A stretch of DNA of 56,707 nt, the filler included, from Dugesia japonica (Eukaryota): the NCBI GenBank assembly GCA_001938525.1. It is 5 parts of 5 records of this genome, joined end to end, with 100 filler letters (N's around TTAATTAATTAA, not from the genome) between each part and the next. Parts side by side here need not be neighbours in the genome. Positions count along the whole stretch, not along the records: positions 18,779 to 35,616 come from MQRL01609201.1; 4 more parts are not named here. One strand, written 5' to 3'. The position numbers were made by a program, and so were the translations under genes. This document shows, piece after piece, positions 6,774-52,480 of the stretch. Each line of letters opens with the position of its first letter. The first letter of the stretch is position 1. The notes under the pieces were generated by a model. That model worked only from the letters and a program-made list of their open reading frames with translations, was not told where the DNA came from and did no database searches.

Positions 6774-7699
6774 TATATATAATATATAATTTAATAATAT
6801 TAGTGGTATTATTTTATTTTAATTAGTTTTTTTTATTATTGTCTCTATTATTTTAATTATCAAAGAAATCTTTTGAGCCCGGCAGCGTCTCCTGTCTCAA
6901 TGTTGGGACAACCGGGTTGTATGTTTTATAAATAATTTCACTTTATCAGTTTAAAAAGCAAAATTTAAAAAAAAACAATTTATTAAATATTAACAAATTA
7001 ATTTTAACTATAGATGAACTAGAAAAATAGATAAATTTACTGTTTTTTCTTTTAATTTATTATTATTTATTTATTATTTTATAATTTAATCAAATAAATT
7101 ACCAGAAATAAATTTGTCAGTAAAATAAATAAATTTATTTTTAGTATTTATCTTTTTTAAATTTTTTATTTTAAAATTATTATTTTTAGTAATTGTTTTT
7201 TAAATATTTTTTAAAATTCTATTTTTAGTATTTTTCTTAGTTTTTATTTTTTTTGCATTTAATACTTATTTTTTTGCAAAATTAATATTTATCCATTTTA
7301 ATATTCATTTTCATGTTTTATATTTAATACTATCATCATTTTTAAAAATTGTTTTGATTGCCAATACTTTACTGTACTTCGTCATAATAAAAGAATATTT
7401 CCAAAAAAAATTAATTGTTAGTATTCATTTATTTTAATAAATTTGAATCTCAATATTATTTAAATAAAACATTCATTCATATTTAGTTAATAATTATTTT
7501 GAAAATTAAATTAAAATTAAATATTAAATAAAATCAAATAAAATTAAACTAAAATAAAATATTCTTCTGTTCTAAAATTTGCCTTACATTTTAATAAAAT
7601 TTTGTAAATCAAACGAAAATCATATATTTTGACTGATAATATTTCTATATTGACCTTTGTACCCATTGCTTTAAAAATGGCACTGGAGAATAAGCACTA

Positions 7700-8154
7700 A
7701 AGAAAAATTAATTTCGCTAAAAATTCGAGAAAAGGTTGACTCCAAGTATCAAGAAATGCTCGAGAGAGCTCTGCCAAGCATTAAGAAACTTTCATCAAAC
7801 TTTATTCTTATGCAGGATGGCGCAAAAACTCATACTTCGAAGTCGACAAGAAATTGGTTAGCTTCAAATCACATAAGCTTTTCTCCGTGGCCACGAAACT
7901 CACCAGATCTGAACCCGATTAAAAATGTTTGGAGACTAATGAAGAGAGAAGTAGAACGTAAAAATCTTAAAAATATGAATGATTTGAAGAGAAATATTGA
8001 TAATGTTTGGGATGGACTCACACTGAAATATCTCGACATTATTTCAGTTAAAGCCCAGAAGAATTCAGAGTTGCATTGCTTTGAAAGGAGAAAAGACAAA
8101 ATATTCAATTTTATACTATTTATACTGTGTAACATTGTCTTTTATACTGAATAA
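7700..8154 (+). pseudogene. Tc1-like transposase C-terminal DDE fragment
   Basis: LMQDGAKTHTSKSTRNWL...WPRNSPDLNPIKNVWRLMKREV (QDNAxxH / WPxxSPDLNPIENxW motifs; catalytic E replaced by K). Confidence 0.9.
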
Positions 8155-9875: not shown

Positions 9876-12800
9876 TTCAAGCGGTATATTTGCTCTAAAC
9901 AATTTAAAGCGAAATCAAATAAATTTTAATAGAAATTACGTCTGTTAATTGAGCTAACATGGTGAAATAAAAAACAAAATAGTTGCTCAGTGTGAGTTTA
10001 AAAAGTTTTGAAGCTTACTTTCTCTAATCAACGAAACTGAACGATCATATTTTGTATTATTTATATTAAGATTTCAAATTGATCTTTTTGAGTACATTAA
10101 TTTCTAAATCNCTTTTCATTTAATTTTAAAATCAATTAATAAACCTTGTAGTTCAGATTCCCCAAATTGCGAAATGTGATACTATTCTACATAATATAGA
10201 TTATTTAAAGCTAATAAAATCTATTAGGTCATGATTTAAATGTACCATCGACAGGAAGAGAACAATCCGGTGGATTTATTTTGTTAAAATAGTGAAAAAT
10301 AATTTTTAATACTATCAAAGTGCTATTACATAGTTGGAAATGATAACCGTAAATTACTGGGTATAGGCAAAAGCAAGAGCTGNCAGTTCTTTGAATAGGG
10401 AAATTGTATTAGTTGATGATAATTATGAAACGAATGTTTCGACTGATTATGTAATAACTGTAAAAAATCTAGTTGATTGCTATGATAATCAAGATGTCAA
10501 TGACGTTATCATTGAAAAATTTTGTTTTGCAACAAGACAAATTATGAAAAACAAAGATGATAATAAACGCATTTGTATTTACACCCATGAAATAAAGACA
10601 AAACGGAAGTGAATGAAACCGTAAATTTGTAATTGATGCTGATACTATATCTATTCGTTCATTAACAGTGAAACAAAGATTTCCAAAAATGCTAGAAAAA
10701 TTATTTAATTATCACAGTTGTTNNNNNNNNNNNNNNNNNNNNNNNNNNNNNNNNNNNNNNNNNNNNNNNNNNTGCTATGATAATCAAGATGTCAATGACG
10801 TTATCATTGAAAAATTTTGTTTTGCAACAAGACAAATTATGAAAAACAAAGATGATAATAAACGCATTTGTATTTACACCCATGAAATAAAGACAAAACG
10901 GAAGTGAATGAAACCGTAAATTTNNNNNNNNNNNNNNNNNNNNNNNNNNNNNNNNNNNNNNNNNNNNNNNNNNNNNNNNNNNNNNNNNNNNNNNNNNNNN
11001 NNNNNNNNNNNNTTGTTTTTAGTATTATTAATTTAATTTAAAATTAATAAGTTAATTTTAACATTGTCGGTTTTGTTATTCATTTTCAAGCTTTTCAATA
11101 AATCGTTTCTTTATTTTTAAAGTCACCTAAGTAATCAGTTCAAAGATTGCGGGTTCCAATGATATCAAATTAAGTGTTTTTATGTTATTAATTGAATAAA
11201 GTGCTGTAATATTTCACTTCTAATTATATGATTTACACATTATCTGAATTCGTTAATGGAAAATGTCTTGAATCAGACTAAGTGCCTTTGATCGCTTATA
11301 TCAGTGTTGTTTAATCTTTGTGTTGCGAAAAATAAATTTTTACATATATCGTTAAAAAATTTTTAATTGAATAATTTATAACGTTTCATCCAAATTTAAA
11401 TGAATGAGTTTATGAGCCTTCTAAGTTTGAGAGTTTGTTTGTCAAAAACTAAGCTCCAATTGAACCTTATTTGTTAGAAACACCAGACTCAGTCATTACA
11501 TTAAAGTTTTTTTATCTTAAATTTTTTAACAAATCAAAACCCATACGAAAACTCAAAAATATAAATAGTGAAAAAAATAATATCAATTCAACTAAATTTA
11601 TCGTTGCTGTAAAAGGTTGGACAATACTGGCCTATAGATAGGCCTTTATCATTATAAAAAAAATTAATCATTGAAACAAATTAATTTTTAATCGATTAAT
11701 TTGTAATTTTCGTATTTAATCAGAAAATATTTAATTGTTTAAATAATATATTTAACAAAATAACTTTTTCAATTAATTGGCTCATTTTGATATTATAATA
11801 GAATTGATTTCATTCAAAATGATCAGATATAAATATAAAGAATCAATATTGAATTTCTTATAGTTGATGTACTTATGTAGACGTGTGCTCACATTTTATT
11901 AAATCGATTCATAATTATACTGTTATAGTTAAATAAAAAATAAGTATGAAACTTCTATTAAAACTGGTTTTTAATTAGTAATTATTAATTAGGTTATTAA
12001 TTACTTATATTTAAGTATAGTTGTGAATTTTATATCAACAATAATGGATTTAATTGAATCTAGCACATGTTATATAATTTATCTAAAATATGCATAATTT
12101 AAAAATAGTTTCATAATCTTGTTTATTTTCCCAAAATACTTGAAAATTTTAAAACTTAAAAATATTTATTTTTACTAAATATAGCTATTTCTGTATATTT
12201 TTGTTTAGAAATCGAATTGTTTTGATAAGTCAAATTTGTGTAGGCTCGTTCATTACACGGATACCAATTTGTAAATATCGAATTTCAAGATAGATGTCAA
12301 AGTAGAGGATTAGTAGGAAAAATTTAACTGTTCCATTGACAGGTCAGATACAAAAAATGAAATTCTCATATTTCTTCCTTTTGTTTATGGTTTTAAAAAT
12401 TTTACAAAATAATATTAAAGTCGCCTTTTACATGAGGTCTATAGTCAATTCTAAGTTTTTCTTTATCAAAATTAGGGTTCAACTTTCATGAGGTTGACTA
12501 TTAATTGATTATATAGGACAATTTCCATTTGTTAAAAATTTGTGATTCCTGATTAATTTGTGTAATTGCTATAGCCACAAATGCTTTGGAATACATTTTG
12601 TTACTCACTTAAAACAGTTCTGAAGAAAGTTTTGTTAAAAAATATTATTAAATTTTTATTAAGTAATGATGTAATTAGTAGGAAGTTATTTTTTACATTA
12701 ATCTAAAATTTTAATTACCGGACTTACACGCATATATCGCACGCGATTCAGTTTGTTACATACTTAATCTTCATATGTGCGTTATAAACGTGAGCTCGGT

Positions 12801-18778: not shown

Positions 18779-20087
18779 CAAATAGAAAAGCTTAAAGAAA
18801 TAGAGATTTGCAATCGTGATTATTAAGAGTATGAAAGCAATTTTAATAGACCAAATATTCCTGATATTTTGTCTTTAAGTGGTTTACCTCAGATTACACA
18901 TATTTTTTAAATAGGTGCAAGGCTAACACAGCTACAACTTTGAAGGATATGAGTCATTGTATAATGAGTCATGTATAATCTAGAACCATTCACGAATTCA
19001 ATGATGGAGATATCAAATAATGAAGTATTACTATATCGATATCGGTTAAAAAATAAATTAGAAGCTGGTCTACATGCGTTGATTCAAATTCAGTTTTTAG
19101 AGAGTTTGGTATTACTTAGAAAAGAAGAATGTGATAAAAAACTTGATTTTCATCTGGATTCGTTAGAAAACATAACATTTTAATGAATAATATGGTAAAG
19201 TTTTTTAATCTCAATCTTTCAATGGTAGCAAACGAAATTTACCCAGAAAATAGAAGGAAAGTATTGAAAGCAATGAACATCAATTTAAGATATGAGTCTG
19301 GAGACGATAAAAGATACAATGATGAATATTAAATTACAATCATTAGCATATGCGTTGTCAAAGCAACATCAATGTCTGATTGAAAGCAAAGTGAAAAGTA
19401 ATGGTAAAATACATATATTGAAATTTAATTATAATTTTAAATATTTAGATTTAATTTGTTATTCAAAGAACCATTAGATATCGTTGGATAAACATTTGTT
19501 ATTTATTAAATCTTGTAAATAATTTGTTGTTTNNNNNNNNNNNNNNNNNNNNNNNNNNNNNNNNNNNNNNNNNNNNNNNNNNNNGGGTTTTATCAATAAA
19601 TCATGTGATATTTGTGCACCATAAATATTAAAATACCGCAACGTAGCATATATGATAATATAATTACAAGTGTTATATTTTTGAAATTTTATTTATTTTA
19701 TTTTATGTTATTTATTTGTTTTGTTTTAATGAATCAATTAAAATAAAATACATAAATACATCAAACACTACTTGGAAACCGNNNNNNNNNNNNNNNNNNN
19801 NNNNNNNNNNNNNNNNNNNNNNNNNNNNNNNTTTCTATTACCTTGAATTTTTTGTTAAAAGTAATTGTTGAAATGTAATTTTTAGGGGTTTTATCAATAA
19901 ATCATGTGATATTTGTGCACCATAAATATTAAAATACCGCAACGTAGCATATATGATAATATAATTACAAGTGTTATATTTTTGAAATTTTATTTATTTT
20001 ATTTTATGTTATTTATTTGTTTTGTTTTAATGAATCAATTAAAATAAAATACATAAATACATCAAACACTACTTGGAAACCGTACTT

Positions 20088-20528
20088 TTGATTGCTAATA
20101 TCAATCACAAGAAGAAGGCTTCCAAAGAAATTATAAGTAAAATAAATTTCCAATTGTTAACAAAAGTGGGAGATTAATAATATTCTTTAAAACCGGAAAT
20201 TGTCGAATAATGGGGCTGAAGAAACCTATAGAAATTGATAATTTACAATATGATATTTGTAATTAATTTAGGTGTTCGAGTTAATTTATGAACATTTTCA
20301 AGATTAATCAAGTGTATGTTTGAACCAGAATTGTTTCCATCATTACGATTAACAAACTACATTCCTTTATGTGTGAATGTATTTTCAACCGGAAAAGAAG
20401 TGATACCTGAATTTAAAAATTTACATTATCATGGATATGTTGAAAACATAAATACAGATTTATATAATTTAATTGAAAAAAAAATGATTATAGGTATTAT
20501 ATTTGTTGAATCACCAATTCTTATGTAA
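20088..20528 (+). pseudogene. Divergent TBP-like gene, copy A (frameshifted, partly deleted)
   Basis: IANINH...IIFFKTGNCRIMGLKKP (repeat 1, cf. TBP LIFSSGKMVCTGAK) and MFEPELFPSLRLTNYIPLCVNVFSTGKEVI (repeat 2, cf. TBP YEPELFPGLIYRM..P..VLLIFVSGKVVL). Confidence 0.75.
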
Positions 20529-20639
20529 TTTTAAATGTCAGACAGTAGATCAATTGAATAAAAACTCCGTGATTTAATACATTTGTTCCTAAAATTGACT
20601 TAAGTTGACTATTCACTATTTAAGGAAACATATATTTTT

Positions 20640-21977
20640 ATGTGGCTTTTATATGATTTGATATGGTATTTTAAGCCATTATTAAGTTTCTATAAGGTTT
20701 TTATATATTTTTATAAGGTATTTTAATGTGTTCTATAATGTTTTATATAGTTTAATAGATATTTTTAGGATTTTTATAGTATTTTAGTATGTAGTACACA
20801 CTAGATAAATATGTTTAACTCAATGGATATAAAGTCCAATACATACATAATAAACCAATTCTCACACATAATGAGCCTATATACATATAATGATCAAAAA
20901 ACAAAGACAATGCAACAAAAAAATATAATTTAAAGAAAGACATTGCAACTTGAATGCAACTATAACAAAGAACATGAGTCGTATTGTACAAGTTAAGCAA
21001 AGAAAATACAACAAATGCAAATACGACTAAGCAAAACAAGAGTTTATATAGGTATTTAATACAATTTTGAAGAGTTAAGAGAATTGTGCATGGGTTTATA
21101 GGTTTAATGTAGNNNNNNNNNNNNNNNNNNNNNNNNTTTTATAGGATCCTATAGGTATTTGTAATATTTGCATAGGGTTTTTAATGTAACTATATGATTT
21201 ATATAGTTACTATTGGGTTTTACTTAGTAATTATATGATTTTAATAGAGTTTTATATGATTGATGGGTTTTTATTGGGTTTTTTATGGTTTAATATGGTT
21301 TTATACGGTTTTATAAAGCCATTTATATAATTAATATATTTCTCTAAAAGGTTTATATGGGTTTATAAGGTAATTATATGGGTTTATGTTATAATTATAT
21401 GGTAATTATATGGTTTTAGTAGAGTTTTATATGATTGATGGGTTTTTATAGTGTTTTTAATGGTTTAATAGGGTTTTTAATATGGTTTTATAAGGTAACT
21501 ATAGGATTTTATATGATCATATTGATCAAATGTTTTGGAATTGCATAGATGTCTATATAATGTTTCGAAAAATTGCACAGACGTCTATGTATTATTTTCA
21601 AACATTACATCGATTTCTATGTTATATTTTCGAACATAACATAGATGTTTATGTTGTAATTTTAAACATAACATAGATGTTTATGTTATTTTACAAACAT
21701 TGCATTTTCAGTAAAAGTTTTAAAGATCCCGTTTAAAACATAGGAAAAAATAANNNNNNNNNNNNNNNNNNNNNNNNNNNNNNNNNNNNNNNNNNNNNNN
21801 NNNNNNNNNNNNNNNNNNNNNNNNNNNNNNNNNNNNNNNNNNNNNNNNNNNNNNNNNNNNNNNNNNNNNNNNNNNNNTCAATAGAGTCTAATACAAAAAA
21901 AACCCTATAGAGTCCTATATACAGAAAACCATTATGGTATTATATACAGAAAATCGACGAGCCTTATCTACCTACTT
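20640..21977. mobile_element. Polinton-like right subterminal region and terminus
   Basis: Degenerate TTTTATA(G/T)GGT tandem repeats; 20965-21050 (CAAAGAACATGAGTC...) matches 49360-49445 inside the TIR-bounded element; ends in TATCTACCTACT at 21977, the same terminus as at 50586. Confidence 0.6.
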
Positions 21978-21979
21978 GA

Positions 21980-22900
21980 TAGTATGTCCTCCCACTGCTT
22001 TCGATTTAAAACACCATTTTGTACTAGAATGTTTTTTTAAGTTAATTCTGATCAACAATGGTATTTTCTCATCAATTAATAAGTAATTAAAAAGAGTTTG
22101 TAAGGTTCCAAATAACCTTACAGCATAAATGTCTAAGGACGCAATATGAACTTCTATAAGATTTAAATTGTGTGCGCAGCATGAAATAAATTTTTTTAAA
22201 TAAAATTTTCACGATTAATTATCACTTGCACGTCTTTATATTTTTCGAAATATTTCTTCCGTTATCGTAATCTTGACCATGAGTAGTTTGTAGCTTCAAT
22301 CCATTTTTAATATTTTTTTCCTTAATTCATTTGCAATCGCTTCTCTTATTTTATTTGTCATATTTATAATTTCTACAAAACGTTTTTTCCACTATATATT
22401 TTTCATTAGAATATTTAATGTCTTATAATTATGGATAATTGATCTTTATGTGATATATCTGGAGTAATGTTAATAGTTATTCTATAATATTGTTGAATTT
22501 CTTTGATTATTTTATAGAGTACTCATATACTTAATAAATTTAAAAATCCTGTTTTTATTTTGAGTTGATAAATAGGTAAAATGGTTTTTAATATGTGAAT
22601 CGAGTATATATTTTCTATCATTACTCTCATTATCTTCATGTTCAATATTAGTTACGTTTTAAATGTGTTTATTCAGTCAATTTTGTGGAGAAGCTGAATT
22701 TTGCTAACATACTTCTCTTTTTTAGCTTTTCCGTTCGATTCATAAACCAACTAGTTTTTTTCGACTTCATTAGTTAATAGTGGTTGGGTAAAACATCCAA
22801 TCTTCTTTACCCGCTACAAAAAAGGATCTGACAAAAAGGATAGCTGCGCAGAGCATGGAATGTTTGAATTATCACATTAATCATCAATAATTAAGTAAAA
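21980..22900 (-). pseudogene. hAT transposase relic (ZMYM1-like clade)
   Basis: Minus translations ITPDISHKDQLSIIIRH (DxTxDxS..EQL) and ISCCAHNLNL (CxAHxLNL). Confidence 0.75.
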
Positions 22901-24889
22901 CAATAAACTCATTAAAATGTTTTAATATTCAAATGAAGATCAATTCGTAAAACCAAAGCTTCTTTAGAGATTGTTATTTCACAATATTTAATTGTCACAA
23001 ATTTAAAGACAAATTTAATTTACGCAAACCCATAATCTTTTATATATTTATGGATACCTATCTTCACTATTACTTGAACTTTACTCAAAACAAGCCACGA
23101 TTGATTATCATCCATTATAACAAAAATTTAATGAACAGCAATGCAAAATATCTAATACATTGAAAATCAGTGTTTCCCAACCTGGGCAATCAAAAGGAAT
23201 TTATTGGCGATAAAAAGTGAATGCAGAGTTAGTGGTCAAAGGTGAGCGATGAAAGATGAGTTTTTATAACTTGTATGCTTCGTGAAAATAGGATATCTGA
23301 GCATTATTATAACATCAATGTAAGACTTCTACTTTTCTTTTTGGACAGACATTCGGTCAAAATTTGCAAACTTTTCTTTTGTTCTCAGTTACCTCACTTC
23401 ATCTTATAAGTAGTTGGATGCTGTGCTGCAACAGTGGTCGCAAAAGCACAATACCAATCTTCTATGACATTGTTACTTCATTACATCAAATACATTAACC
23501 AGTGAGTTTATCTGAAATTGATGGATATCATGAAATCTATGAACAATTTCAAATATTTACCTTCGAAAGCTAGCTTGGACTTTGCTACAGATTTGTTGCG
23601 AACACTTTGTCCATATTACAAAAGCAACGGAAGAGAAGAGTCTGAGATAGCGCTCGAGAAAACAACTTTTTTCACACTTGATGAAGAACTAAGATGTTTA
23701 CTCGAATTTAATGATATTACAGAAGTTAATGAATGAAATTTTCTCAAAGTTAATTATTTTTAAAAATCATTGGAAAGCAAAGTGGAAATCTTAATTAATA
23801 AATAAAAAATTAATAACTTTTTCTATTTTTACTACTTTTATTACACATCCTATATTTAGTAATTCAATAAAGCTCGAAAATTCAAGCTTTTAGACCCGCT
23901 ACTGGTAACATCAGGACTTACAGGGTGGACATGTTATTCATAATTTGTTAAACTTACTATTCGTCACACTATTGTACGACAAAAGTTCAAACCAAATGCA
24001 ATGAAGAAATTGGATATAAAATTGGTTTATTTTAATATTCTTGTGGTTTCGTCTCTGAAGGTTTTCTAGCATTCTAATTTCGATATTCCCATTCCTTACA
24101 ATGGAATATTTTTTCGACATTTCTAGCAATCTAATTCTGATAATTTATCATCTGATAAAATTAGATTATTTAAAGAATTAATAAATCATTTTCTTTAAAT
24201 TATTTTATTTACTCAATAAAATAATTTTTTTTTCTTGATAATTATCTAAGTTCATTATTTGATTAACTTGCTCAATAATTAAATAACTTATTTATTTAAG
24301 TGTTATTTTGAATTTTTTATGTATTTGAATTAAATAATTTATTCTATACTTAAATAAATAGTGAAGCACTGTAACAAAGACTTTTTGAAATTTAAAAAAT
24401 TGAATTTAAAACGAGTACATACATGCTATGATTACAAACTGGATATCCTTGTTTCTTCAATACTGAGTTCATTCTTTTCTTATGATTTGATCTTATATTT
24501 CGTTCTTTAACCTTTGTCCTTTTTACTTGAAAAGATCTCGACTTCTGCTTACTCTGTTTTTCATGTTAACTCACTGAATTCTTGACCTTCTGAATGAATT
24601 TGTTTAATTTCCAGTCTTTTTTGATTATACCACAATATTATGATTAGTTTAGTTAATTTATCCAAACATATCCATGTCAATAATATTTCACATACGGATT
24701 TGATGACTACAAGCTTGTTGTTTTGATTGCTTAAGCGTGTTTGTCAAACTTGGTCTATATCTAGAGCTGTTAATTTATAATTCCAATTTGAGTTTAGAGC
24801 CTTTGAAAGCATTTATCTTCTATTTCAGTAAGTGAATGCCGTTAATACTAAACATAATTAAGTATATTCAATAATTAAAACCATCAAAA

Positions 24890-25130
24890 TATAAGTAACA
24901 TAGGTAAAGAACATGATAATATGTCTATTTTATTATCTTGAATCCAATGTCTTGTGCTGCTTTATTTATGACCAGGAGCAAGGCCATGTTGAAAAATCCA
25001 CTTTGGCTTAAGGGACATTATCTAGTAACTGTAATAATCCAGAAATTAAAGTATTTTGATATTTTTCAGATGTTATTATTCTGACGATAAATAATAAAGT
25101 TCCAAGAGACATACTCCAGCACTTCTATGC
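24890..25130 (-). pseudogene. Tc1-like DDE fragment
   Basis: Frame-broken ITSEKYQNTL...IFQHGLAPGHK*SSTRHWIQDNKIDIL. Confidence 0.55.
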
Positions 25131-25370
25131 TTGAATGTTTTGTATTGTTATAATTTGATATTAAATCTTTAATTGTGCTTTAATTCCAATAATGTTTTCT
25201 TTTGTTTCTTAAACTAATTCCCCATTTTACTTTAAATGTTACAAAACATTTCCACAAATATAAATTTACTTCTATTATGATACAATGGAATATAATTATT
25301 TTTTATAAAGTATTTAAATATTCTTTGTTAAATCATCTTTATTTAGGATCTATTTTTATGGTAAGCACTT

Positions 25371-27220
25371 TATTAGTTAAATTCAAAGTCTCAAGTCTCC
25401 AAAATTTGTTTATTAATTATTACAAGTCTTTTATTAAAATGAAAAATGCTAAAGCACAATTCACAATATTTTAAAAAATAATCTGAGAAATCTTAATAAA
25501 ATATTTTTCAAAAATATTGATTTTTTAAATTCCAAAATACTTTTATTTTACCTGTATCTTTAAATATTTTTAAACCTAATTTTATAAAATAATTTTTAAA
25601 ATTTTATAATTTAACATAATATAAAATATTGACTTTAATTTTAAAATACCTTTATTTTACATATATATTTATTTATTTTTAAACCTAATTTTATAAAATT
25701 ATTTTTATAATTTTATAATTTAACACAAAATAATCCAGTATTCGTAAAAAGTCTGTTCACCCTNTATAAAAATACAACTTTTAATTGGAATGAATATTTT
25801 CAGCCACGAAATTTAATAAATAAATAAATACATGATAATCTTAATATTTAATAGGATGTCCTTTTGATTTTTTGACCAATTCTAATCTTTTTGTCATCGA
25901 GAATACAATTTTCCTGCATAGATTACGAGAAAGTTTGTACCATTCGCCTTGATCTCATTCCATAATTCTTCAGTAGAATTGTGTATCATTGGTATTACTT
26001 TCCGTTTAAGGATACCCCAGATAGTTTCTATAGGATTCAGGTCAGGAGAATTACCTGGCTAGGGTAAGACATCAATATTTTTATTTTTTAGGAAAGCCTG
26101 GGTACTTTTGGCCTTATGTGGTGAAGCCAAATCATGTTGAAAAACGAATGCTGCTATTGGAAAGACTAAGCATTTACCAACTATGTCTATATCATGAATT
26201 ATCTCTTTTGGATATTTCTCGGCATTCATATTTCCATTGATTCTTTTCAGAAGTCCAACTTCATTACTGTTGAAGCAGCTCTAGACATGTATGTATGAAC
26301 CATGTTGCATAACTGCGTGGATAAAGGTAGGATTGTAATTTTCCAATGAGGTACTTCGAATCAATAATTTACTTGATGAAGAATATGACTGAAAGATACA
26401 CTCGTCGCTGAATACAACATCTCCTTATTTATCTGCATCCCAACTACTGTAAGTCGTAGCCCAGGAAAGTCTTCTGTGACGTTGATGCAATTTCAAATAT
26501 GGCTTCTTAATTGCTGAATAACCTCGAAAACCGTACTTGTTCAGAATTTTCTGAACATTACTAACAGAAAAATTTTGGACAGCACTTGTATTATACGTAT
26601 GGGTGATATTATAAGCGATAATAATAAGCGATTGGATAATAAGCGATTGGCTTTGCAAATGCGTATTATAGCTCGTGAAGCTTGGCGTGAAACAATAATT
26701 GGTCTGCTATTTCTCATCTTATCTCGCACGGATCCCAATTTTCGATATTTCTTCCAAAGATATTGCATTCCACGTAGTCACAGTCTTCCTGTACTTTTNA
26801 CGTAATTCATGAGCTATTTCTGTCCAAGACTTTCCATTATTCCGTAGTATAACGATTACATTTCTTTGAAATTCTGGTAAATTTCTGGACATTATATTGC
26901 TCTAAAACCATGCCATTTTACATTATTTTACATATATCAATTAAAAATAAATTATAATAACTTNNATTATTTAAATAGTTTATCAATAACTAAATATTTA
27001 AACAATTAGTTTAAACTAAATCAAAATGTTTATTAAAAGTTGCATTTTTATAGGGGGTGAACAGACTTTTTATGAGTACGGTATATAGAATTTAGTCAAT
27101 TAATTTGTATTTTAAAAAACCTGTTTTATATTTTAAAAGTTTCAAAAAACCAATTTATATATTAAATATAAAATTTAAAAAATCTCAGATATTTGAAATC
27201 CATGAATCGATACTCACACA
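25371..27220. repeat. AT-rich dispersed repeat (host of the Tc1 insertion); paralogue at 38441-39150
   Basis: TATTAGTTAAATTCAAA...AAATCTCAGATATTTGAAAT(C/T)CATGAAT collinear in both copies apart from the Tc1 and a shorter indel. Confidence 0.8.
25737..27081 (-). mobile_element. Full-length but mutated Tc1 transposon (~1.35 kb)
   Basis: ~50-bp TIRs (..AAAAAGTCTGTTCACCC.TATAAAAAT.CAACTTTTAAT); KKYRKLGSVRDKMRNSRP, GFRGYSAIKKPYL, FSDE, FQHDLASPH, NSPDLNPIETIWG in broken frames. Confidence 0.92.
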
Positions 27221-27299
27221 CTTAAACTTTATACGAAAAGCATTTCATATGGAATTATGTATTCCACGCTTTTACAGCTTTACAAAAAACATATCCTAC

Positions 27300-28200
27300 A
27301 TATAATCCAATACTTAGTAATATGTTTTTTAATTCTACTTTTGACATTATATTTTGACATTATCTAGGACATGAGGTCATAATTTATTGTTCTTTCCATA
27401 TACTCTTATTTTTGGTGTTCTTTATCGAATAAGTAGTTTTCTTAACAAAGCCATCATTCAAGTATTTATATTCGATTTCACTTACTTGTACTATTTTTAC
27501 TTTTTGTACGGAAAGCTTCTTTAAAATTCGTGCACATTTACGTATTTATTTAGTTCTTTTAATATTTGCATTTGTTTTTGATTCTTTCATATTACATATA
27601 TTTTCCTTTTCAATTACTCTTCCTACTAGTATATTTTCTTTTAATGGTAGTTTTACTAATTTTCTTTGTAGTTTTCGCTTAGTGTTAGGTTTTCTTTATA
27701 AAGTTCTATGCATTATGTTTACATCTACAATATATTTGTCTTTTATATCATTAGAATTGTGTGATATATTATTTTTAAATGCTGCTAGGTCTACTCTGTA
27801 TATTGCTCCTTCTCTTGTGCTTGGATTATAATATCAAGTCTAATATCAAGTTTAGTGTTAAGTTTAATATAGTTATGTTTCAAAAGAATTTTTTTCATAG
27901 GGTCAAGATTCTAAGAAAGTTGGTTTTAATTTAGATAATAATATATCATTTCTTAGATACATGAATTGTTTTATTTTGCCTACTTTCTTTTACGGATTAA
28001 TGTTCTGCTATATATGATATAGAGCAACTCACGTGTCACAGTAATTAATTATCCCTTGGATAATGTTATTAAATATTCTTGAACTAATCTAGTATCAGAC
28101 TCCAAACAAAACAGAAGAATATGTCACTCAATATACAGAAAAGATTCAGCGACTCTTCTGCAAAGAATAAACTTAGAACATCTGATTAAAATCTGGTAGT
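27300..28200 (-). pseudogene. Possible heavily decayed non-LTR retrotransposon RT region
   Basis: Weak: ILSDIFFCFV..ILD, GIINYCD, IKQFMYL in broken frames loosely resemble LSPxLF / YADD / FKYLG. Confidence 0.3.
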
Positions 28201-28748
28201 TCCTAAAGAGTACCTTTATTGGGCTCGATTTGTTGTAGAACCCCAATACTATCTTCACCGTTGTTTTGCTAAAGAAAATTTAATGAATTTTCCTTTGTTA
28301 AATTATGTCCGATTTCATTGCATACTAAACGACTAATTTCCTGTAAAAAAAACTAATATATTTTTCTAGTGGTATTTTAACACAACTAATAAATATTTAC
28401 TAATATTTGGAAGTTCCTCGAAAGCTTTTCTGCATTTTTTAGCATAATTTTCAATAGAATAAACCACCGATTCATATATTTTAAAATCGTTTGTAGAAAG
28501 AAAATTTTTTGATGAATGTTCTTTGAACAAGGTCTTTCACATCGTCTCCAATATCGAATATTTTTTTAGTGGAAACAATTAAATTCCTTATAATGCCATA
28601 TCATGAAACTAAAAAAAATATTGAAGACATAATTAATTAATAATAAATAATCAAGCACAGTCAACAATTAAATACTTGAAAGAAGAAATGTAATTTTAAT
28701 TTAACTTAAAAAATTAATCGTTATAATTTGTATTTTGATCTTCTAGTA

Positions 28749-29243
28749 CATAGTTTCTCAACCAAAAATGCACCGTGGACCAGTAAACTGTAAAACATTT
28801 CTAACGCGGACCACTAATTGATAAACATTGCTCTATGACAGTGTTTCTTAACCAAAACGACACCACTGATCAGTAGATAGTCAAACTTTCTAACGCGGAG
28901 TATTAATGATGGTTATACCTAGTATTGTTATTCTAAATTTTAGCTAAAAATATTTTTTTTGCAAAAACTAATTTTACATGCATCACTGGATAAGGTAGGG
29001 TACCTTCTTCCCAGGCGAAGAATTTGATAATGTGAAGAAGCATCTAGCATTATAATTTACAATTTAGTAAACATTTTTTGTGTAAAAAAATTTGTATTAG
29101 CAACAGATACGGAAGGTTCTGATTGTTCAACTAGATATCTTTATTTTATTTTGTAAAAAATTATTTAATGATCCATGGACGGCTCACAAGTAATTTATTT
29201 ACGAACCTGATAAGGGCCGTGGCCCATAGGTTGGGGACCACTG
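28749..29243. mobile_element. hAT MITE with a duplicated 5' end
   Basis: CATAGTTTCTCAACC and CAGTGTTTCTTAACC left ends, GGTTGGGGACCACTG right end, TSD TTCTAGTA / TTCTAGAA. Confidence 0.7.
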
Positions 29244-31099
29244 TTCTAGAATATTTTCAAAGTGGAATATGCAAAATAATGTTTTTATTTACTTTAAATT
29301 CCAAAATTTATTTACTAACTTAAAAACCCAAAGTCAAAATAATTACACATATTAAAGTTTTATATAATTCATAACGTAAAAAATGTATTTGTTAATATCA
29401 ACGAATTTATTAATATTTTTACAAATGAGATACTATATTGATTTAAGAATAAAAATTATTTCAATGTATATTTGCATTAGAACACTAAATTTTCTCAACT
29501 TTAATATGAAGATAAGATCACATTCACTTAAGTAACTTTTATTTTATTGAACAATTTTTATTTTTTTAATAACTCCTCTTACAGTCTAGTATTTACTGTT
29601 TTTTTTATTCAAAGTACATTATACAAAAATAATCTATAGTTGAATAATCCGATCTTTATTTTCGTCAGTGTTATGTGATGTTAAGTATATAAAAGTCAGG
29701 TACCATTCAATTTTACCTAACCATAAATTTTTTTTTTGATTTTGTGGATAATTAGCATAGTTATGAATACAAAATTTTACTGTTTTAAAAGTTCAAAAAC
29801 TACCGAAATCAATTTTTCTCAATAAAATAAGACATGAAATTTAAATGTCTGTTAATAAAAAAGTACATTGGTAAATGTTGATTTAATAGTAAAAACTAGG
29901 TAAATTTTAAAACTGAAAAAACGTGGCTTATTTACACAAAATATTATGATATTCTTCATTCTATTTTGCGATGAATATTCATAGTAATTTAATTGTTCAA
30001 ATTACAAATGAGTAATTGATAAAATCAGTCATATCACCATTAGATAAAGTCAAAGGGCATTACTATATAAACATGTTTTAAAAATCAATTCTAAAGTTCA
30101 TGCCGTGTTTAAAATATCTTTCAGGGTTCTGATGTATGAGAAATATCTCAAATTTAATGTATATTGTTTTTAATTAAATATAAGGATTTTACTTTAATTA
30201 TTACTAATTAATTTCGAGTTCACTTTTAATCCTTAAACCCTGGAAAACATCTAACATAAATAATTTTAAAATAAGTTGATAAAATACGATTAATTTGATT
30301 TTGAAATTCTCTATTAAGTTATGGTTCAATAATTTTAGTTATTCATGTTTGACGAACTGAGCAGATACAAATCGAATTTTTTAGTTAAAGAAATTAATTA
30401 TTAAATTGATACTTATTCGATTTTTTGAACTTTATTAAGTCAAAATTATTTTACTGATTTCCTTGTAACTGAGTAATATGTAAAGTATAGTGTTCCTTAA
30501 GAATCATGAAATCTGAATTTGCAAGATATTATATGGAATGTAATCTTTTTTGATAAACGAATAGTCTTTTAAATTATAAAAGTTAACACTCTGTTCTAAG
30601 GATCAGACACTCTTGTTCTACCAGTGTATGTCTTTCTCATATTGCATATCATACATTTTTTTAATTGGCGTTCTACAATCCGTTCCAAAAATAACTTACA
30701 TTTGAATATTCTGTCAGTTTTGACCTCTCACGTGACATAATTCCTCGTGAATGAAATCAATAAGTTTGGGAATCGATTGCCCTACAAGTACTATTTTCTT
30801 TTTGTTATTTTCATTGATAATTAACAGTTCATCATTCATCTCAAATTTATCCATTTTTGACAAATATTTACTTTTTGTCATCATTGCACTCAGAATGATA
30901 TTTGAATTGTTTGATTTCGAATTTATATGCGTAATTAAAATATTTATAAAGTTTTTGAATTTTAAAATATTTCAAGAAAATAATTAAAATAATTATTGCG
31001 TACATTTGTTTGAATATTAAAACTATTCTAATTTAGTTTTTGAATTTATAGAAACTTTGTCTTAAATAAATATTTGATGAGGATAGCCTTTTTCTTACA

Positions 31100-33740
31100 T
31101 ATATTGCAACCACGTCAGGCTCAAACTTAGTAACAGATTTGTTACGCCCGAGACCTTTCAAGTTTGGTGACAATCTTGAAAGATTCTTGAGGGTCGTGGG
31201 TCGATTCTTCAAAGCGGCGAAAATTTAAAGATTTACAAGAGATTGCAATCGGTCAGATGATTGACCCGAATCTTGAAGGAAGATATGAAGCATCGGAGAA
31301 CAAAATAAAGGAATATGAAGCTAGGCTACGACTTCTGGTGGAAAGACCAAGAGACGTTTTTGAAGACCTAGAAGAATTCATTCGTTACAGACAAGGTGAT
31401 ACCGATAATGAGGTACTCTTCCACGATGTAGAAAAACTGGCAGAGAAATTGCTTAGCCATAATCTGTTAAAAGAGTCGGTTATATCAGCACTCCTGATAA
31501 ACGCAACTGCACAGAAGAAGGCAAAAATAGAGATTCTGATGAAAAAAGTTTCTGAACCGGATGAAATAAAAGAAATAATCAGAGACGTTTCAAGAATCGC
31601 GAAAAAGACAGAAGGAATAATCATGATACGTAGCTACAAGGAGGCAATATACACGGGACCAAAGGTATGGTACCAAGGATGCAGGCATCAACCTACAAAG
31701 GGCCAAATACAAGAAGGGAGTTCAGAACAGAGAAAGTAGAATGTTGGAACTGTTACAAATTTGGACACATAAGTCGCGAGTGCCCCGACAGAAAGACTCC
31801 TACATGCTACTCATGTGGAAATGTAGGGCATATAAGAAGACAGTGCAACAAGATAAAGTGCGGAAAATGCAACAAGAACGATCATAAAACCGAAAATTGT
31901 TTCACAAAGACGGATTACAAGAGAATGAACGAATATCCTTCAAAATATAAGAGAGATGAAGTAAATAAAGCTCCAATTTCCGGGAAGGCATGTTAACATG
32001 AATGCAGTGGAAAATGATGAAACGAGTAACAAGGAATATGAGGACGACAGATATAAAAACGCTAGATATAGTAACAACAAGTATGATGCAAACGTATATG
32101 AATAAGAGAGAAACCCAAATGGAGAGACTCCGCCAACTTCGAAAATGGTAGGATCTGTAGAACTCAAAATCTAATGGATGATCCTCAAAATATCGATAGT
32201 TATAGTAAAAGTAGTCATATCAATAATATAGAGGATGACGTCAAAGAAAGCGCTTATAATTTTTTTAAGAAAAATATATCAGTAATAAAGGGAGAAACAT
32301 CAGTGAAACCAAAAATTGCAACAGTAGAAGAATGGGGAAAGGGTGTGATTAGATATGATATAATGCAATGTATGCCAAGTATTGCTACAAAGATCAAAAA
32401 CATGAAGTTTGAATGCCTACTGGATACCGGAGCAAGAATTAATGTGATGAGTATGGTTGTGTTTAGAAATTCAAGGATATTCTGTTATTAACAACTAAGG
32501 ACAGACTATGGTGCGCAAACGACAGTTAATTAAGTACCAAAGGAAGACTTGAGGTGGAAGTGAGGATCGGCAATACGACTAGATGAATTAATTTCATAGT
32601 TATGTAAAAGGTAATCCCTAGCATAATTGGTGGCATTGAGTTGTAGACCAGTTTTGGATTAGAACCACATTGGATAGAAACAGCAGAAAAAGATAATTCA
32701 GATCGGATTTGCAATATCGAGCCGCATTTTGGAAGGATTATAATAGATGAAAAAAGATGTCAAGAAGCATTGAGTGAGAGAAATACACTGGAAAATGGGA
32801 CGATCAAGCACTTGATAAGAAAACATTCTAATATCTTTATGGCAGATAAATGGGAGATAGGATCCACAAAACTAGTGAAGCATAAAATCGTAACTAAAGG
32901 AGGACCTATAAAAGTTAAACCATGGAGAACACCTATGAACCTACAAGATAAGATAAAGAAGGGGTACGTATTCTTTTTGAAAATGGAATTATACGAAAGT
33001 GCAATTCAAAATGGAACACCCTGTTGATATGTATCTGGAAAAAAGAAAAGAAAGACATTCATCTCTGTCTCGATTTTCGACAGCTGAACACTATTACGGA
33101 AAGACAAGCATTTCCAATGCCAAATGTAGAAGAGATTCTGGATAGATTAGGTGGGTCAAAATTCTTCTGCTCATTAGATTTAAGTAATGTTTACTATCAA
33201 GTTAAGTTAGATGAGGAGTCAAAAGATAAAACAGCCTTTTCAACAAAGTCAGGTCAATACTGCTTCAATAGAATGCCATTTGGCATAGCTGCGGTGCCTG
33301 GGACATTCCAGAAACTCATGACAAAGGTTTTGGGTACAACAAAGGGAACAACGGTGTATTTAGACGATATTCTAATATATTCAGAATACTTGGAAGAGCA
33401 TTAAAAACCACTGAATGAAGTATTAAGTAAAATACATCAAGCATGACTACATCTGAGCCTGTCAAAATGTCAATTTCTAAGAAAAGAGATCAAATTTTTG
33501 GGACACATCATAATTGATAAAGGAGTTTAGGCCGATCCAGCAAAATTGGTTGCAACGCAGACATATGAAAGGCCAAAATGCGTAAAAGGATTGAGGAGTT
33601 TCTTGGGGATATGCTGATATTACAGAAGATTCATAAAGGATTGCGCAAAGAAGGCTAGGGAACTAGAAAAACTGTGTAGTGTAAATAATAAGATGTTAAT
33701 ATAGACAGAGAAAAGCGAACAATCATTCAGAGATATGAAA
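31100..33740 (+). mobile_element. Ty3/Gypsy retrotransposon relic (gag with zinc knuckles, protease, RT)
   Basis: CWNCYKFGHISREC, CYSCGNVGHIRRQC, CGKCNKNDHKTENC; LLDTGA; LCLDFRQLN, RMPFG, VYLDDILI; degenerate PBS-like TGCAACCACGTCAGG at ~31105; many stops and frameshifts. Confidence 0.95.
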
Positions 33741-33741
33741 G

Positions 33742-34435
33742 TGATTGGGTTTTTAATAGTTTGATAATTAATTTACTTTTAATCTGACTCCAAGATAGTG
33801 TTCGATAATAGATAAGACCCAACAATATATATATGTTTATTCAAATAATCACAAATCACAACACAAGTTTTTANNNNNNNNNNNNNNNNNNNNNNNNNNN
33901 NNNNNNNNNNNNNNNNNNNNNNNNNNNNNNNNNNNNNNNNNNNNNNNNNNNNNNNNNNNNNNNNNNNNNNNNNNNNNNNNNNNNNNNNNNNNNNNNNNNN
34001 NNAACAATTTCAATTTTATTGCTTTGATTTCCTTTAATTCGTTTCTTTATTTTCAAAATATCCTTTATTCTTTTTGCAGACCTTTGATTTCCTTTAATTC
34101 TTTAAATTATTTCAATAAACGCTGTCTCCTTGACTACTTTAATTTATCTTTAACTTCTCTTTTAACAATTTTTATAATTCTTTAAATTCTACTAAGTTCT
34201 CAAGTTCTTAAATTCTTAAGTTCTGATTTTTGCTTATATTTGTTTGCTTATATAGCTATATTCTGGCGCCATGATTCTGATTTCGATTCCCTTGTCAAGT
34301 TTATGACAACTTTCAATGATCTCCTTTTCACCTCTTCTGTAAAATAATTCTGATGTTTATTCCAACCTCCCACGTTTTTATCTTGTTTTAATTTCAGCTG
34401 TCACTTTCTAATTAAACTCTTGAATTTTTGTTATG
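33742..34435 (-). mobile_element. LTR-like repeat of the same family as 4748-5438, truncating the Gypsy pol
   Basis: Reverse complement matches 4850-5410. Confidence 0.6.
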
Positions 34436-35616
34436 AAGAAATGTTTGAAGACAAAAAACTGACTGAGAGAACAAAGAAATGAAAAATAGCGGAAGAAATA
34501 ATTCATTAAATAAAAGTAAGAAAGTCAAAGGAAATAATCAACTTACGGAAAATAGATTAAATGAATTAATTAGTGAAAGAAAAACAGCGAAATTAAATTA
34601 AAGTTAAATTAGGAAAACAAAGAAATGAACAGCAAATTAATATTTTGGAAGAAAATAAAATAAATAATTTATTTATTTAAATAANNNNNNNNNNNNNNNN
34701 NNNNNNNNNNNNNNNNNNNNNNNNNNNNNNNNNNTAAATTATTTTTAAAAGAAAAATAATTATTTCGTGAAAAATGGCAAAAACGACAACTTCCCATGGT
34801 GAAAAAATCAGCAAATAAGAAGATTATGCTCCAGAAAAAATCGGGGAATTCAGAAATTTTGGTTAGAAAATNNNNNNNNNNNNNNNNNNNNNNNNNNNNN
34901 NNNNNNNNNNNNNNNNNNNNNNNNNNNNNNNNNNNNNNNNNNACCAATAAAAAGAACTCACGTGACGTTCAAGCCAATGGAAACGTCAGAAAGATCGTAC
35001 GATTCCAAATAACCAACGAAAGGAATTAGGGTGTGAAGAGAAACCGGTATAAATACCGGTGTAATTTTCACAAAATATACACACTTTTTATCAAGGAAAT
35101 ACGGTAATTAAAACGAAATTAACACAAAAGATGATTATTTATGCGATTCGATTGATGATGAAACGATTTTCGACTGGATTGCCACGGCTTATCATTATGG
35201 AGGACCTATAGAGTCACTATTGGATACGAATGGGATGGATGTTTTGCTCTTGTGCTTGCTCCGGATCGGGATTCAGGACGCGTTAGTTTTGTTAATTGTT
35301 AGATTATTGTACCCCAAGTGTAATTTAAATCATATAATATATTTTTCACTTAATATATCTTTTGTTTTCCGAATTGATAAATAGCTATTAAGATTATAAT
35401 CAAATATAGAGTGACCGAAGTAAGCAATACCCCACAAAACGGAGAATTGTCAGTGGATAATTGTAAAGGCTAATTGTGATAAGTAAATTAAGCGAGTATC
35501 ATGTAAAACGAACCAAAACTAAAGGAGTGCGAGTCTGTACTGGAGTTACGAGTCAACGGCTTCATTCCGAAGATCTGGATTTTTTTGGGGACACCAGATT
35601 CAAATTCATCGCGGGG

Positions 35617-37114: not shown

Positions 37115-37585
37115 CAATTTAAAATTTTTTCTATCACTTTTTTNCCAATCAAATTTATTAAGTCTGATGGTCTGTTATCCACATCTTCTTGAAAATTCAA
37201 AATTTAAAGTTCAAGTATTACAATTTTTCCCGTTGAGAACACATTTACACATAAAGGATCGTATTTGAAAAGACGTAATTCTGAAAATAACTCCGATTCG
37301 AACCAACAGTTGACTTTTTTTTTCAATTTATATACATTTATTGCAAATCTCATATTTATGACAACTGTTAACGATCGTAGTCATATATTTTTAATATCAT
37401 AAGGGTTAAAATCTCGTGGTTCTAAAGGTTTCTTACACCCCATAATTCGACATTTTCTTGATCTGAAGAATATAATTGTATACTTGTCACTTTTGACTTT
37501 GAATTGACATGGTTTACCTATAGGAAAGCTCATTTTTTGTTACTTCTTTTGTCAAATCACCTCTGTAATTAATATTGGTGATCAT
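37115..37585 (-). pseudogene. Divergent TBP-like gene, copy B (near full length, frameshifts and stops)
   Basis: Reconstructed MITNINYRGDLTKEVTK/MSFPIGKPCQFKVKSDKYTIIFFRSRKCRIMG/KKPLEPRDFNPYDIKNI*LRSLTVVINMRFAINVYKLKKKVNCWFESELFSELRLFKYDPLCVNVFSTGKIVIL. Confidence 0.75.
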
Positions 37586-37708: not shown

Positions 37709-38311
37709 ATGGAGAAGTTACGAAGGGATGCAGTTGTAGTGGGAAAACTTGTTTGCATGTAAATTACTGAAATCGAATGTATTCAAGTCGAAATTTAATA
37801 AAATATACTGGCATAGAGGTGCGGTAGTTGATTGGACTGACTTAATTAGAATTTCGTAACATCAAAATGAAGATTATAAACAGATTCGATAAAAATTGGA
37901 GCAAAAAATTGAGGCCTGGTGATGTTTTTTGTTGTTGAGGATCTGTATCAATAGGCAGATAAAGAAAAGGATTTCAATAACTTGTTCTCAAAGATGTCAA
38001 GACATTGTAATGTTACTATGATATTCATTACTCGAAACCTATTTCATCAAGGTGGTAGTCATAGAACACGTAATCTAAACGTACAATACTTGGTTCTATT
38101 TTAAAATCCTAGAGATCAAACAGTTGCTGATTTTCTATCAAGACAGGCTTATCCAAATAATAGGCATTTTCTTATTGAATCATTTGAAGATGCAACAGAT
38201 AAACCGCATGGATATCTATTTCTTGACTTTATACAGCAATGTCCAGATGAATATACAGTGAGAACAGATATTTTAAATCCTAATGGTATAACTATTTAAA
38301 ACAAACTAGGT
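37709..38311 (+). pseudogene. Polinton packaging ATPase (A32/FtsK-like)
   Basis: Walker A GCSCSGKT (37726), Walker B VVEDL, SKMSRHCNVTMIFITRNLF, LVLF*NPRD, DATDKPHGYLFLDF..RTDI. Confidence 0.85.
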
Positions 38312-52118: not shown

Positions 52119-52480
52119 CATATTGGTAAACCATCACAAATTGTTTATAAATGTATGAAGTACACGGTTATTTTCTGTAAATCAGGGATTTATAGAATCA
52201 TATGATGTAAGAAATCAATAGAAATGAACCAATTACAAGATGACATTAAACATATTCCATTGCAATTGTTAGCAATTGTATTCAATTTGAAACAGTCATG
52301 TAATATGCATACATTAACAAAATAGCCAAGTATATGTATGAACCTGAATTTTTTCCAGCGTTGAGGCTTACAAAATATAAACCAGCTTGTGTTAATGTAC
52401 TTTCCAGTGGAAATTTGTAATATTTAGTTTCAAGAATTTATATTATCAAAATCAAATTTAAAGATAAATTTATAGATAAA
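52119..52480 (+). pseudogene. Divergent TBP-like gene, copy C (5' end cut by the Penelope insertion)
   Basis: HIGKPSQIVYKCMKYTVIFCKSGIYRII*CKKSI...YMYEPEFFPALRLTKYKPACVNVLSSG/FVIFSFKNL. Confidence 0.75.

What the first reader, a model, noticed from the sequence alone, without database searches (positions are those of the whole stretch)
20088..21977. Second TBP-like copy on an independent scaffold, followed by Polinton subterminal repeats and a terminus
Copy A (FEPELFPSLRLTNYIPLCVNVFSTGK) lies ~1.5 kb from a TATCTACCTACT end identical to the TIR end at 50586, and 20965-21050 matches the interior of that TIR-bounded element. This scaffold is separated from copy B by an artificial linker, so it is independent evidence that the TBP-like gene and Polintons travel together.
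Basis: partly seen in the sequence, partly recalled or inferred. Interest (0 to 1): 0.7.

Follow-up and report, generated by a model that had tools for sequence, protein, structure and literature searches.

The report
Dead Polinton end with mini-TBP gene
This is the broken right-hand end of a virus-like jumping element (a Polinton) whose very abundant family carries its own shrunken TATA-binding protein, which likely lets working copies switch on their capsid and packaging genes through a promoter signal of their own.

Summary
Real, but this copy is a wreck. 20088-20528 is a pseudogene of a ~150-aa TBP-fold protein (Pfam TBP; predicted fold Z 13 against TBP) with at least 150 genomic matches. 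The end TATCTACCTACT lies at 21965-21976 and abuts a hAT-like repeat exactly at the hexamer TGATAG, so it is a true insertion junction. Only 12 bp of the terminal repeat survive; about 2.1 kb is missing compared with a collinear sister copy. The 'subterminal' repeats are an internal spacer. No left end was found. The TBP-Polinton link rests on far better evidence than this copy: 12 of 20 ATPase-selected loci carry the gene, and one metagenome contig holds it with pPolB, integrase, ATPase and capsid genes. The family keeps the TFIIB-binding glutamates, has a shortened N-lobe, and groups apart from host TBPs. TATAAAC precedes ATPase (21/32) and capsid (13/17) starts but not the TBP gene (1/42). 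Likely role: an element-encoded late-gene promoter factor (untested). The scan found the same idea before on other DNA (15 notes, at least 3 genomes), and Starrett 2021 labels a TBP gene in a figure legend.

The parts
18779..19381 (+). Remnant of an unknown Polinton gene ('U', ~200 aa, predicted mostly helical) that precedes the TBP-like gene in this subfamily; contig starts inside it
   Evidence: tblastn with P0015; U then TBP on the same strand in L003, L004, L005, L049, L050, L067, L068; no Pfam family; low-confidence model
19585..20082 (.). Exact 197-bp duplication (19585-19781 = 19886-20082) around 50-N gaps; probably a scaffolding artefact
   Evidence: 100% self-match; artefact status inferred
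20088..20528 (+). Mini-TBP pseudogene (copy A): start codon lost, two frameshifts, in-frame stops
   Evidence: stop-free natural relatives pass Pfam PF00352
20900..21020 (+). Short A-rich spacer motif ('X') shared with 49297-49456 and many sister copies
21137..21525 (+). T-rich degenerate repeat array of the internal spacer
   Evidence: collinear in L045, L268, L259, L261, L262, L265
21540..21753 (+). AACATAGATG-type repeat array at the centre of the spacer, running into a 124-N gap
   Evidence: sequence
21878..21964 (+). First ~85 bp of the A-rich repeat array; cut short here, whereas sister copies continue for hundreds of bases to an acidic ORF and the terminal repeat
   Evidence: L057-L059, L045, L255, L262
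21965..21976 (+). Last 12 bp of a Polinton right end (TATCTACCTACT), joined directly to the A-rich array
   Evidence: junction form unique in the genome; bridged by contigs in 3 of 4 runs
21977..21982 (+). Target-site hexamer TGATAG (one copy of the inferred 6-bp duplication)
   Evidence: empty-site copies of the flanking repeat read CGATAG at this place
21977..22500 (-). Flank: degraded hAT-like transposase repeat into which the element inserted
   Evidence: 37 matches; DUF4371 match below cut-off, E 0.0023
37141..37536 (-). Copy B mini-TBP pseudogene, divergent from a packaging ATPase (37752-38296), followed by a pX-like gene, integrase (39774-40262) and an end at 40604-40615; another stretch of the pack
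47320..50586 (+). Non-autonomous TIR-bounded derivative with 6-bp TSD TTTATC on both sides; holds the A-rich array and acidic ORF that copy A has lost; no TBP gene
52113..52458 (+).
   Evidence: tblastn E 3e-32

Best explanation
The locus is the decayed right-hand part of a Polinton/Maverick copy inserted into a hAT-like repeat, and the family's shrunken TBP-fold protein likely acts in working copies as an element-encoded promoter factor that reads TATAAAC boxes before packaging and capsid genes and is predicted to recruit host TFIIB and RNA polymerase II. Shown: the gene family, its fold prediction, its place among Polinton genes, the exact junction at 21976/21977, the motif's enrichment. Inferred: a deletion with short microhomology (TAT) joined the A-rich array to the last 12 bp of the element's own end, removing ~2.1 kb; the protein is made early from its own non-TATAAAC promoter, binds the minor groove with three kept phenylalanines, uses the kept EPE loop for TFIIB, and escapes TFIIA/TAF1/Mot1/Brf-type control because the N-lobe helix region is shortened. 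Copy A itself cannot make the protein.
For: Fold: 4 of 4 stop-free own-genome copies pass Pfam TBP; model of P0005 pLDDT 88.8, Foldseek E 1.4e-9, Z 13.2, rmsd 2.5, 145 aligned, next unrelated fold Z 6.9. Linkage: 12 of 20 ATPase-selected loci with >=400 bp upstream carry a divergent mini-TBP, plus 5 of the 10 shorter ones; metagenome contig L114 holds pPolB, mini-TBP, ATPase, rve integrase and capsid-like genes. Same element: order TBP, spacer, A-rich array, acidic ORF in L045, L268, L263; L045 goes on to a right end 4.0 kb after the gene; L326 and L259 show spacer, acidic ORF, end. Junction: 11 of 14 flank-repeat loci continue upstream through the target site, 6 with exact CGATAG; contigs of 3 of 4 runs bridge it. 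Promoter: exact TATAAAC within 70 nt of ATPase starts 21/32 (shuffle mean 1.0, max 4), capsid 13/17 (0.3, max 2), mini-TBP 1/42 (2.0); [CT]ATAAAC before 5/5 metagenome ATPases and 0/20 mini-TBPs. Residues in 57 family members: F41, F100, F116 57/57; both loop glutamates 54/57; P101 54/57; N-to-C lobe linker 25 residues or fewer in 46/57 vs 34 in a canonical-type TBP. Tree: 38 mini-TBPs on one side of a branch (SH-aLRT 94), host TBP-family ORFs on the other.
Against: No binding or transcription test. No control set of Polintons lacking the gene could be obtained (searches found nothing), so the motif is not shown to depend on the protein; 8 of 20 ATPase loci lack an adjacent TBP gene and most of these still carry TATAAAC. 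TATAAAC is close to a normal TATA box and host TBP may read it. In L114 the motif also precedes the integrase and several unknown ORFs (9 of 16 ORFs within 100 nt), and it precedes only 1 of 3 metagenome capsid starts within 70 nt; the motif was widened to [CT]ATAAAC after seeing L113 and L114. Own-genome copies are related, so counts are not independent events. Only one locus (L045) shows gene-to-end on one scaffold; L259 has the gene in the opposite orientation to the spacer; left ends also occur downstream of TBP copies (5 of 91 by pattern, and L016). The 12 terminal bases are common to several families here. The tree is the quick one, without bootstrap.
Confidence: 0.6

Rival explanations
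1. The 12-bp end belongs to a different, outer Polinton in which the TBP-bearing copy was nested; one deletion fused the inner copy's spacer to the outer element's last bases.
For: Nested Polinton ends are common in TBP-bearing loci, in both orientations; 12 bp cannot be assigned to a subfamily.
Against: The end has the orientation of the family's own end in L045, L259 and L326, and matches the ends of the related elements 47320-50586 and L259 letter for letter. One element and one deletion is the simpler account.
Confidence: 0.15
2. The mini-TBP is a decoy or repressor: it occupies TATA-like DNA or soaks up TFIIB to damp host or element transcription, while host TBP reads the TATAAAC boxes.
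For: Shortened N-lobe and loss of one of four intercalating phenylalanines (no aromatic there in 46/57) could mean a non-productive complex; TFIIB glutamates kept.
Against: New invariant residues on the DNA face (N114, R47, M49, S71) suggest a changed, selected specificity; one non-canonical box recurs across distant elements.
Confidence: 0.15
3. The protein has a non-transcriptional DNA-bending role, at the termini or in the A/T-rich spacer arrays, in replication, integration or packaging.
For: Gene often sits head-to-head with the packaging ATPase and next to long A/T repeat arrays.
Against: The TFIIB-contact glutamates are kept in 54 of 57 members, which such a role would not need.
Confidence: 0.07
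4. One reading: a separate short insertion with its left end between the gene and 21976.
For: A 124-N gap (21754-21877) is unread, and elements that join a TIR directly to the A-rich array exist (47320-50586).
Against: No left-end word in the visible sequence; the first bases after the gap are the very start of the array, continuing the pre-gap repeat as in L045, L057, L058, L059; the sequence after the end is hAT-like, not the rest of the spacer.
Confidence: 0.03

Closest known systems
Polintons/Mavericks (adintoviruses, polintoviruses) of animals (PMC6431247, section 10 and passages read; PMC8502044, section 3.4, passages and supplement search)
   Same: pPolB, rve integrase, A32-like ATPase, adenain-like protease, capsid genes, TIRs ending AG..CT, 6-bp TSD. 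The Fig. [quoted passage not shown]
   Different: The legend does not say which element carries it (figure not held; no TBP hit in the one supplement searched), and gives no fold, family, promoter or function. TBP is not among the core genes described; two later Polinton surveys have no TBP mention in their main text (10.1101/2023.10.06.561300; 10.64898/2026.06.19.733378; term search only).
Cellular TBP (Pfam PF00352; PDB 1ytb, 1cdw, 1ais)
   Same: Two-lobed saddle fold (Z 13), C-lobe EPELFP loop with both TFIIB-contact glutamates, three intercalating phenylalanines, the orientation proline.
   Different: ~150 aa instead of ~180; ~20% identity; N-lobe lacks the long second helix in the model and one phenylalanine; new invariant polar residues; separate branch from the host's own TBP-family ORFs.
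Herpesvirus TBP mimics (KSHV ORF24, EBV BcRF1, HCMV UL87) reading TATT late promoters (PMC12529657, abstract and passages read)
   Same: Virus-encoded TBP fold, more polar DNA face, a non-canonical TATA-like box before structural genes, use of host Pol II.
   Different: ORF24 is large, lacks the TFIIB glutamates and works in a six-protein viral complex; the Polinton protein is a bare core that keeps those glutamates, and no partner gene was identified.
TBP-like proteins of Nucleocytoviricota (PMC7221094, section 12 and passages read; BFVD matches)
   Same: Viral TBP fold with the N-lobe regulatory signature lost.
   Different: That paper reports diverged TFIIB-contact positions and viral TFIIB homologues in those viruses; here the contact residues are kept, and no TFIIB or RNA polymerase family was found among the 14 ORFs scanned (10 of them from L114).

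Membership tests
Polinton/Maverick | Protein-primed DNA polymerase B | tested here: met
   At family level: L114 carries PF03175 (E 1.9e-21) with the mini-TBP. Not present in copy A, whose contig starts inside the element.
Polinton/Maverick | Retroviral-type (rve) integrase | tested here: met
   L114 and L109; own-genome loci L188, L189, L194, L201 and others link TBP, ATPase and integrase. Not in copy A.
Polinton/Maverick | A32-like packaging ATPase | tested here: met
   Pox_A32 above cut-off for L093 and L188; 12 of 20 ATPase loci with a divergent mini-TBP.
Polinton/Maverick | Adenovirus-like cysteine protease | tested here: met
   Peptidase_C5 above cut-off in L102, a mini-TBP contig.
Polinton/Maverick | Double and single jelly-roll capsid proteins | tested here: inconclusive
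   ~410-aa and ~400-aa ORFs in the capsid positions of L102, L109, L114 were named from recalled motifs and gene order; no Pfam match; not folded.
Polinton/Maverick | Terminal inverted repeats ending AG...CT | tested here: inconclusive
   Copy A keeps 12 bp of one end only; left end not in the contig and not found. Met for the related 47320-50586 element.
Polinton/Maverick | 6-bp target-site duplication | tested here: inconclusive
   Copy A: one side only, TGATAG at the empty-site position. Met for 47320-50586 (TTTATC both sides).
TBP (PF00352) | Two-lobed saddle fold | tested here: met
   Predicted model matches TBP over 145-149 residues, Z 13.
TBP (PF00352) | Four intercalating phenylalanines | tested here: not met
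   Three invariant (57/57); the N-lobe loop phenylalanine has no aromatic equivalent in 46 of 57 by sequence alignment.
TBP (PF00352) | C-lobe glutamates that contact TFIIB | tested here: met
   Both E in 54 of 57; role from PMC7221094 passages.
TBP (PF00352) | Eukaryotic N-lobe helix 2 with basic patch (TFIIA, TAF1, Mot1, Brf) | tested here: not met
   No long helix between the lobes in the model; linker 25 or fewer residues in 46 of 57 vs 34.
TBP (PF00352) | Binds TATA DNA and starts transcription | not testable with these tools
   Needs biochemistry.

The most novel reading that the evidence does not exclude
A broad lineage of animal Polintons carries the smallest known self-standing TBP, which pairs a host-compatible TFIIB-binding lobe with a rebuilt, regulator-proof lobe that reads TATAAAC: a one-protein late-gene switch that gives these elements a true early/late viral cascade, and a natural TBP with altered promoter specificity.
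Probability: 0.4. Interest if true: 0.75.

Novelty: new variant of a known kind. Interest (0 to 1): 0.5.

Why it matters
How integrated Polintons turn on capsid genes without an RNA polymerase of their own is an open question tied to whether they are real viruses. An element-borne TBP with a matching promoter box makes this testable with one small protein and a 7-bp motif. It would also be a natural example of a TBP that keeps TFIIB contact while shedding its regulators. This particular copy adds little beyond being one more dead member with a cleanly mapped insertion junction.

Tried and rejected
Left junction: exact pattern for TGATAG plus a left end gave 0 matches; a looser flank-plus-end pattern gave no exact match, and 134 near matches against 232 for the reversed control; its best hit L219 is coding sequence, not a junction. 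The assembly has 648,594 contigs, so this shows no absence. Control set of Polintons without the gene: viral-contig scans with ATPase and capsid alignments found nothing; the narrow TBP alignment found nothing there and the wide one only 5 weak, canonical-type hits. Gene U as a TFIIB-like partner: no Pfam family, no Atlas hit, model pLDDT 50, so no fold search and no complex prediction were run. Expression: no RNA holder listed; raw RNA reads of 4 runs laid on a sister locus gave sparse reads, mostly under 90% alike, on both strands without gene-wise direction: no verdict. No displayed contig piece spans the 21754-21877 gap (one search shows only part of its pieces). AGTAGATA at 35920 is not treated as a left end (no inverted partner). 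Recent capture of host TBP was rejected by the tree (L300 gave no row). ESM Atlas gave only general TBP clusters, no host range. Literature searches for a description of a Polinton TBP or its promoter: (listings seen; only PMC8502044 and its preprint mention it); the library lacks most subscription papers and Repbase, and bioRxiv supplements are closed.

Full report
Setting. The window is a pack of five stretches. The finding lies in 18779-35616, which is the whole of contig G000:C609201, in an AT-rich genome of 854 Mb and 648,594 contigs. The contig begins inside the element, so nothing upstream can be read. An earlier AI note calls the host a planarian; I did not test this.

The gene. Against a natural intact relative the gene spans 20088-20528 in three frame segments, with a lost start codon and in-frame stops, so copy A is dead. 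It belongs to a very large family: 4,076 candidates, of which the 150 scored all matched. Four stop-free copies tested pass the Pfam TBP cut-off. Close natural relatives are 147-153 aa. A model of one (P0005; pLDDT 88.8) matches solved TBPs (Foldseek E 1.4e-9; Z 13.2, rmsd 2.5 over 145 residues, next unrelated fold 6.9). A profile search found 244 proteins at E 1e-10 or better among 50%-identity representatives, the best 150 mostly short proteins of this type. In a quick tree of 69 rows, 38 mini-TBPs lie on one side of a branch (SH-aLRT 94; core of 32 at 99) and five host TBP-family ORFs lie with canonical TBPs. The gene is therefore an old element-borne lineage, not a recent capture from this host; the careful tree did not finish.

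The end. TATCTACCTACT is at 21965-21976. What follows is a dispersed repeat (37 matches) with hAT-type transposase remnants on the minus strand (the Pfam match is below cut-off and the hAT label rests on my knowledge of DUF4371). Of 14 loci of that repeat examined, 11 run on upstream through the place where copy A switches to Polinton sequence, 6 with exact CGATAG where copy A has TGATAG; one was too short, one differed and one did not align there. So the junction is exactly 21976/21977 and TGATAG is the target site. Contigs of 3 of 4 public runs bridge it (one may be the source sample). The related element 47320-50586 shows the expected 6-bp duplication, TTTATC. The left junction was not found.

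Same element? Only 12 bp of the terminal repeat remain, fused to the start of an A-rich array. In sister copies the order is TBP gene, motif X, T-rich array, AACATAGATG array, A-rich array, acidic ORF, terminal repeat: gene to acidic ORF in L045, L268 and L263, gene to A-rich array in L262 (12 loci examined, chosen for spacer similarity), spacer to end in L326 and L259, and the whole run in L045, where the end lies 4.0 kb after the gene. From the start of the A-rich array to the end L045 has about 2.2 kb and copy A 0.1 kb, so about 2.1 kb is missing; both sides share TAT, which suggests microhomology joining (inference). The fused form occurs once in the genome. A separate short insertion is unlikely, but a fusion with an outer nested element cannot be excluded: among 91 distinct TBP copies (34 with 1.5 kb or more downstream) a pattern found right-end words in 5, two of them probably chance, and left-end words in 5; L259 has its TBP gene pointing the other way.

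Linkage to Polintons. Of 30 loci picked by the packaging ATPase alone, 20 had 400 bp or more upstream and 12 of these hold a head-to-head mini-TBP; 5 of the 10 shorter ones do too. Other copies follow gene U (as copy A) or a pX-like gene. In metagenomes the closest relatives sit among ATPase, protease and capsid-like genes, and L114 holds pPolB, mini-TBP, ATPase, rve integrase and capsid-like ORFs on one contig. This, not copy A, is the real evidence that gene and element travel together.

How it likely works. Exact TATAAAC lies 33-51 nt before 21 of 32 ATPase starts and 41-42 nt before 13 of 17 capsid starts in this genome, against shuffle means of 1.0 and 0.3, but before 1 of 42 mini-TBP starts and 0 of 5 U starts (starts with under 72 nt upstream, N runs or duplicates were dropped). 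In distant metagenome elements [CT]ATAAAC precedes 5 of 5 ATPases and 0 of 20 mini-TBPs, but only 1 of 3 capsid and 2 of 4 penton-like starts within 70 nt, and in L114 it also precedes the integrase. In 57 family members three phenylalanines are invariant, both loop glutamates are kept in 54, and the fourth phenylalanine and the long N-lobe helix are missing or shortened. PMC7221094 (passages and section 12 read) assigns those glutamates to TFIIB contact and the N-lobe basic patch to TFIIA, TAF1, Brf and Mot1. From recall, not from a call, the N-lobe grips the 3' half of the TATA box, which is where TATAAAC departs from TATAAAA. I therefore commit to an element-encoded promoter factor for packaging and capsid genes that recruits host TFIIB and Pol II (0.6). 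It works like the herpesvirus TBP mimics on TATT promoters (PMC12529657, abstract and passages) but is not one of them. Against it: no binding data, no control set of TBP-less Polintons, 8 of 20 ATPase loci lack an adjacent gene while most keep the motif, and RNA reads gave no verdict.

Novelty. Six literature searches found only the figure-legend label in PMC8502044 and its preprint (one supplement searched without a hit). This scan has noted Polinton mini-TBPs with a TATA-like box before, in 15 findings from at least 3 other genomes; those notes gave me the lead to count the motif, and one describes a variant that has lost partner surfaces, whereas the family here keeps the TFIIB glutamates. 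Verdict: a real, well-mapped dead copy of an uncharacterised variant of Polinton; the family is interesting, the locus is ordinary.

Noticed in passing
window 52113-52458: Third mini-TBP fragment, 1.5 kb from the 47320-50586 element but outside its ends.
   Followed up: partly
window 40604-41790: A Polinton right end is followed at once by the N-terminal part of a pPolB-like gene: probably one element inserted into, or abutting, another.
   Followed up: no
window 47320-47470 and 50438-50586; L010, L016, L305, L308, L309: The TIRs of this family contain tandem CCAAT-box repeats (CCAATCAGAATC), very long in some copies; possible NF-Y sites.
   Followed up: no
L061:1631, L333:368: Polinton right ends directly followed by the family's A-rich array; together with the breaks in copy A and in 47320-50586 this suggests the array is a hotspot for insertion and deletion.
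   Followed up: partly
window 18779-19381; P0014, P0015: Gene U: conserved ~200-aa protein of no known family, only 2 relatives outside this genome at near length.
   Followed up: partly
L299-L304: The host has at least six TBP-family loci, three of them divergent (37-38% to a canonical-type TBP), intron-poor.
   Followed up: partly
window 31191-33404: Decayed Ty3/gypsy gag-pol on the same contig as copy A; Tc1-like transposase remnants at 7675-8154 and 26425-26706.
   Followed up: no
L114:7145-9490; L098:1618, L104:1307; L109:1710: Accessory genes of mini-TBP Polintons in metagenomes: KilA-N, phospholipase A2-like, secreted LRR protein, RING finger.
   Followed up: no
window 10478-10923, 19585-20082, 40768-41403: Near-exact duplications flanking 50-N gaps, probably scaffolding artefacts.
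   Followed up: no
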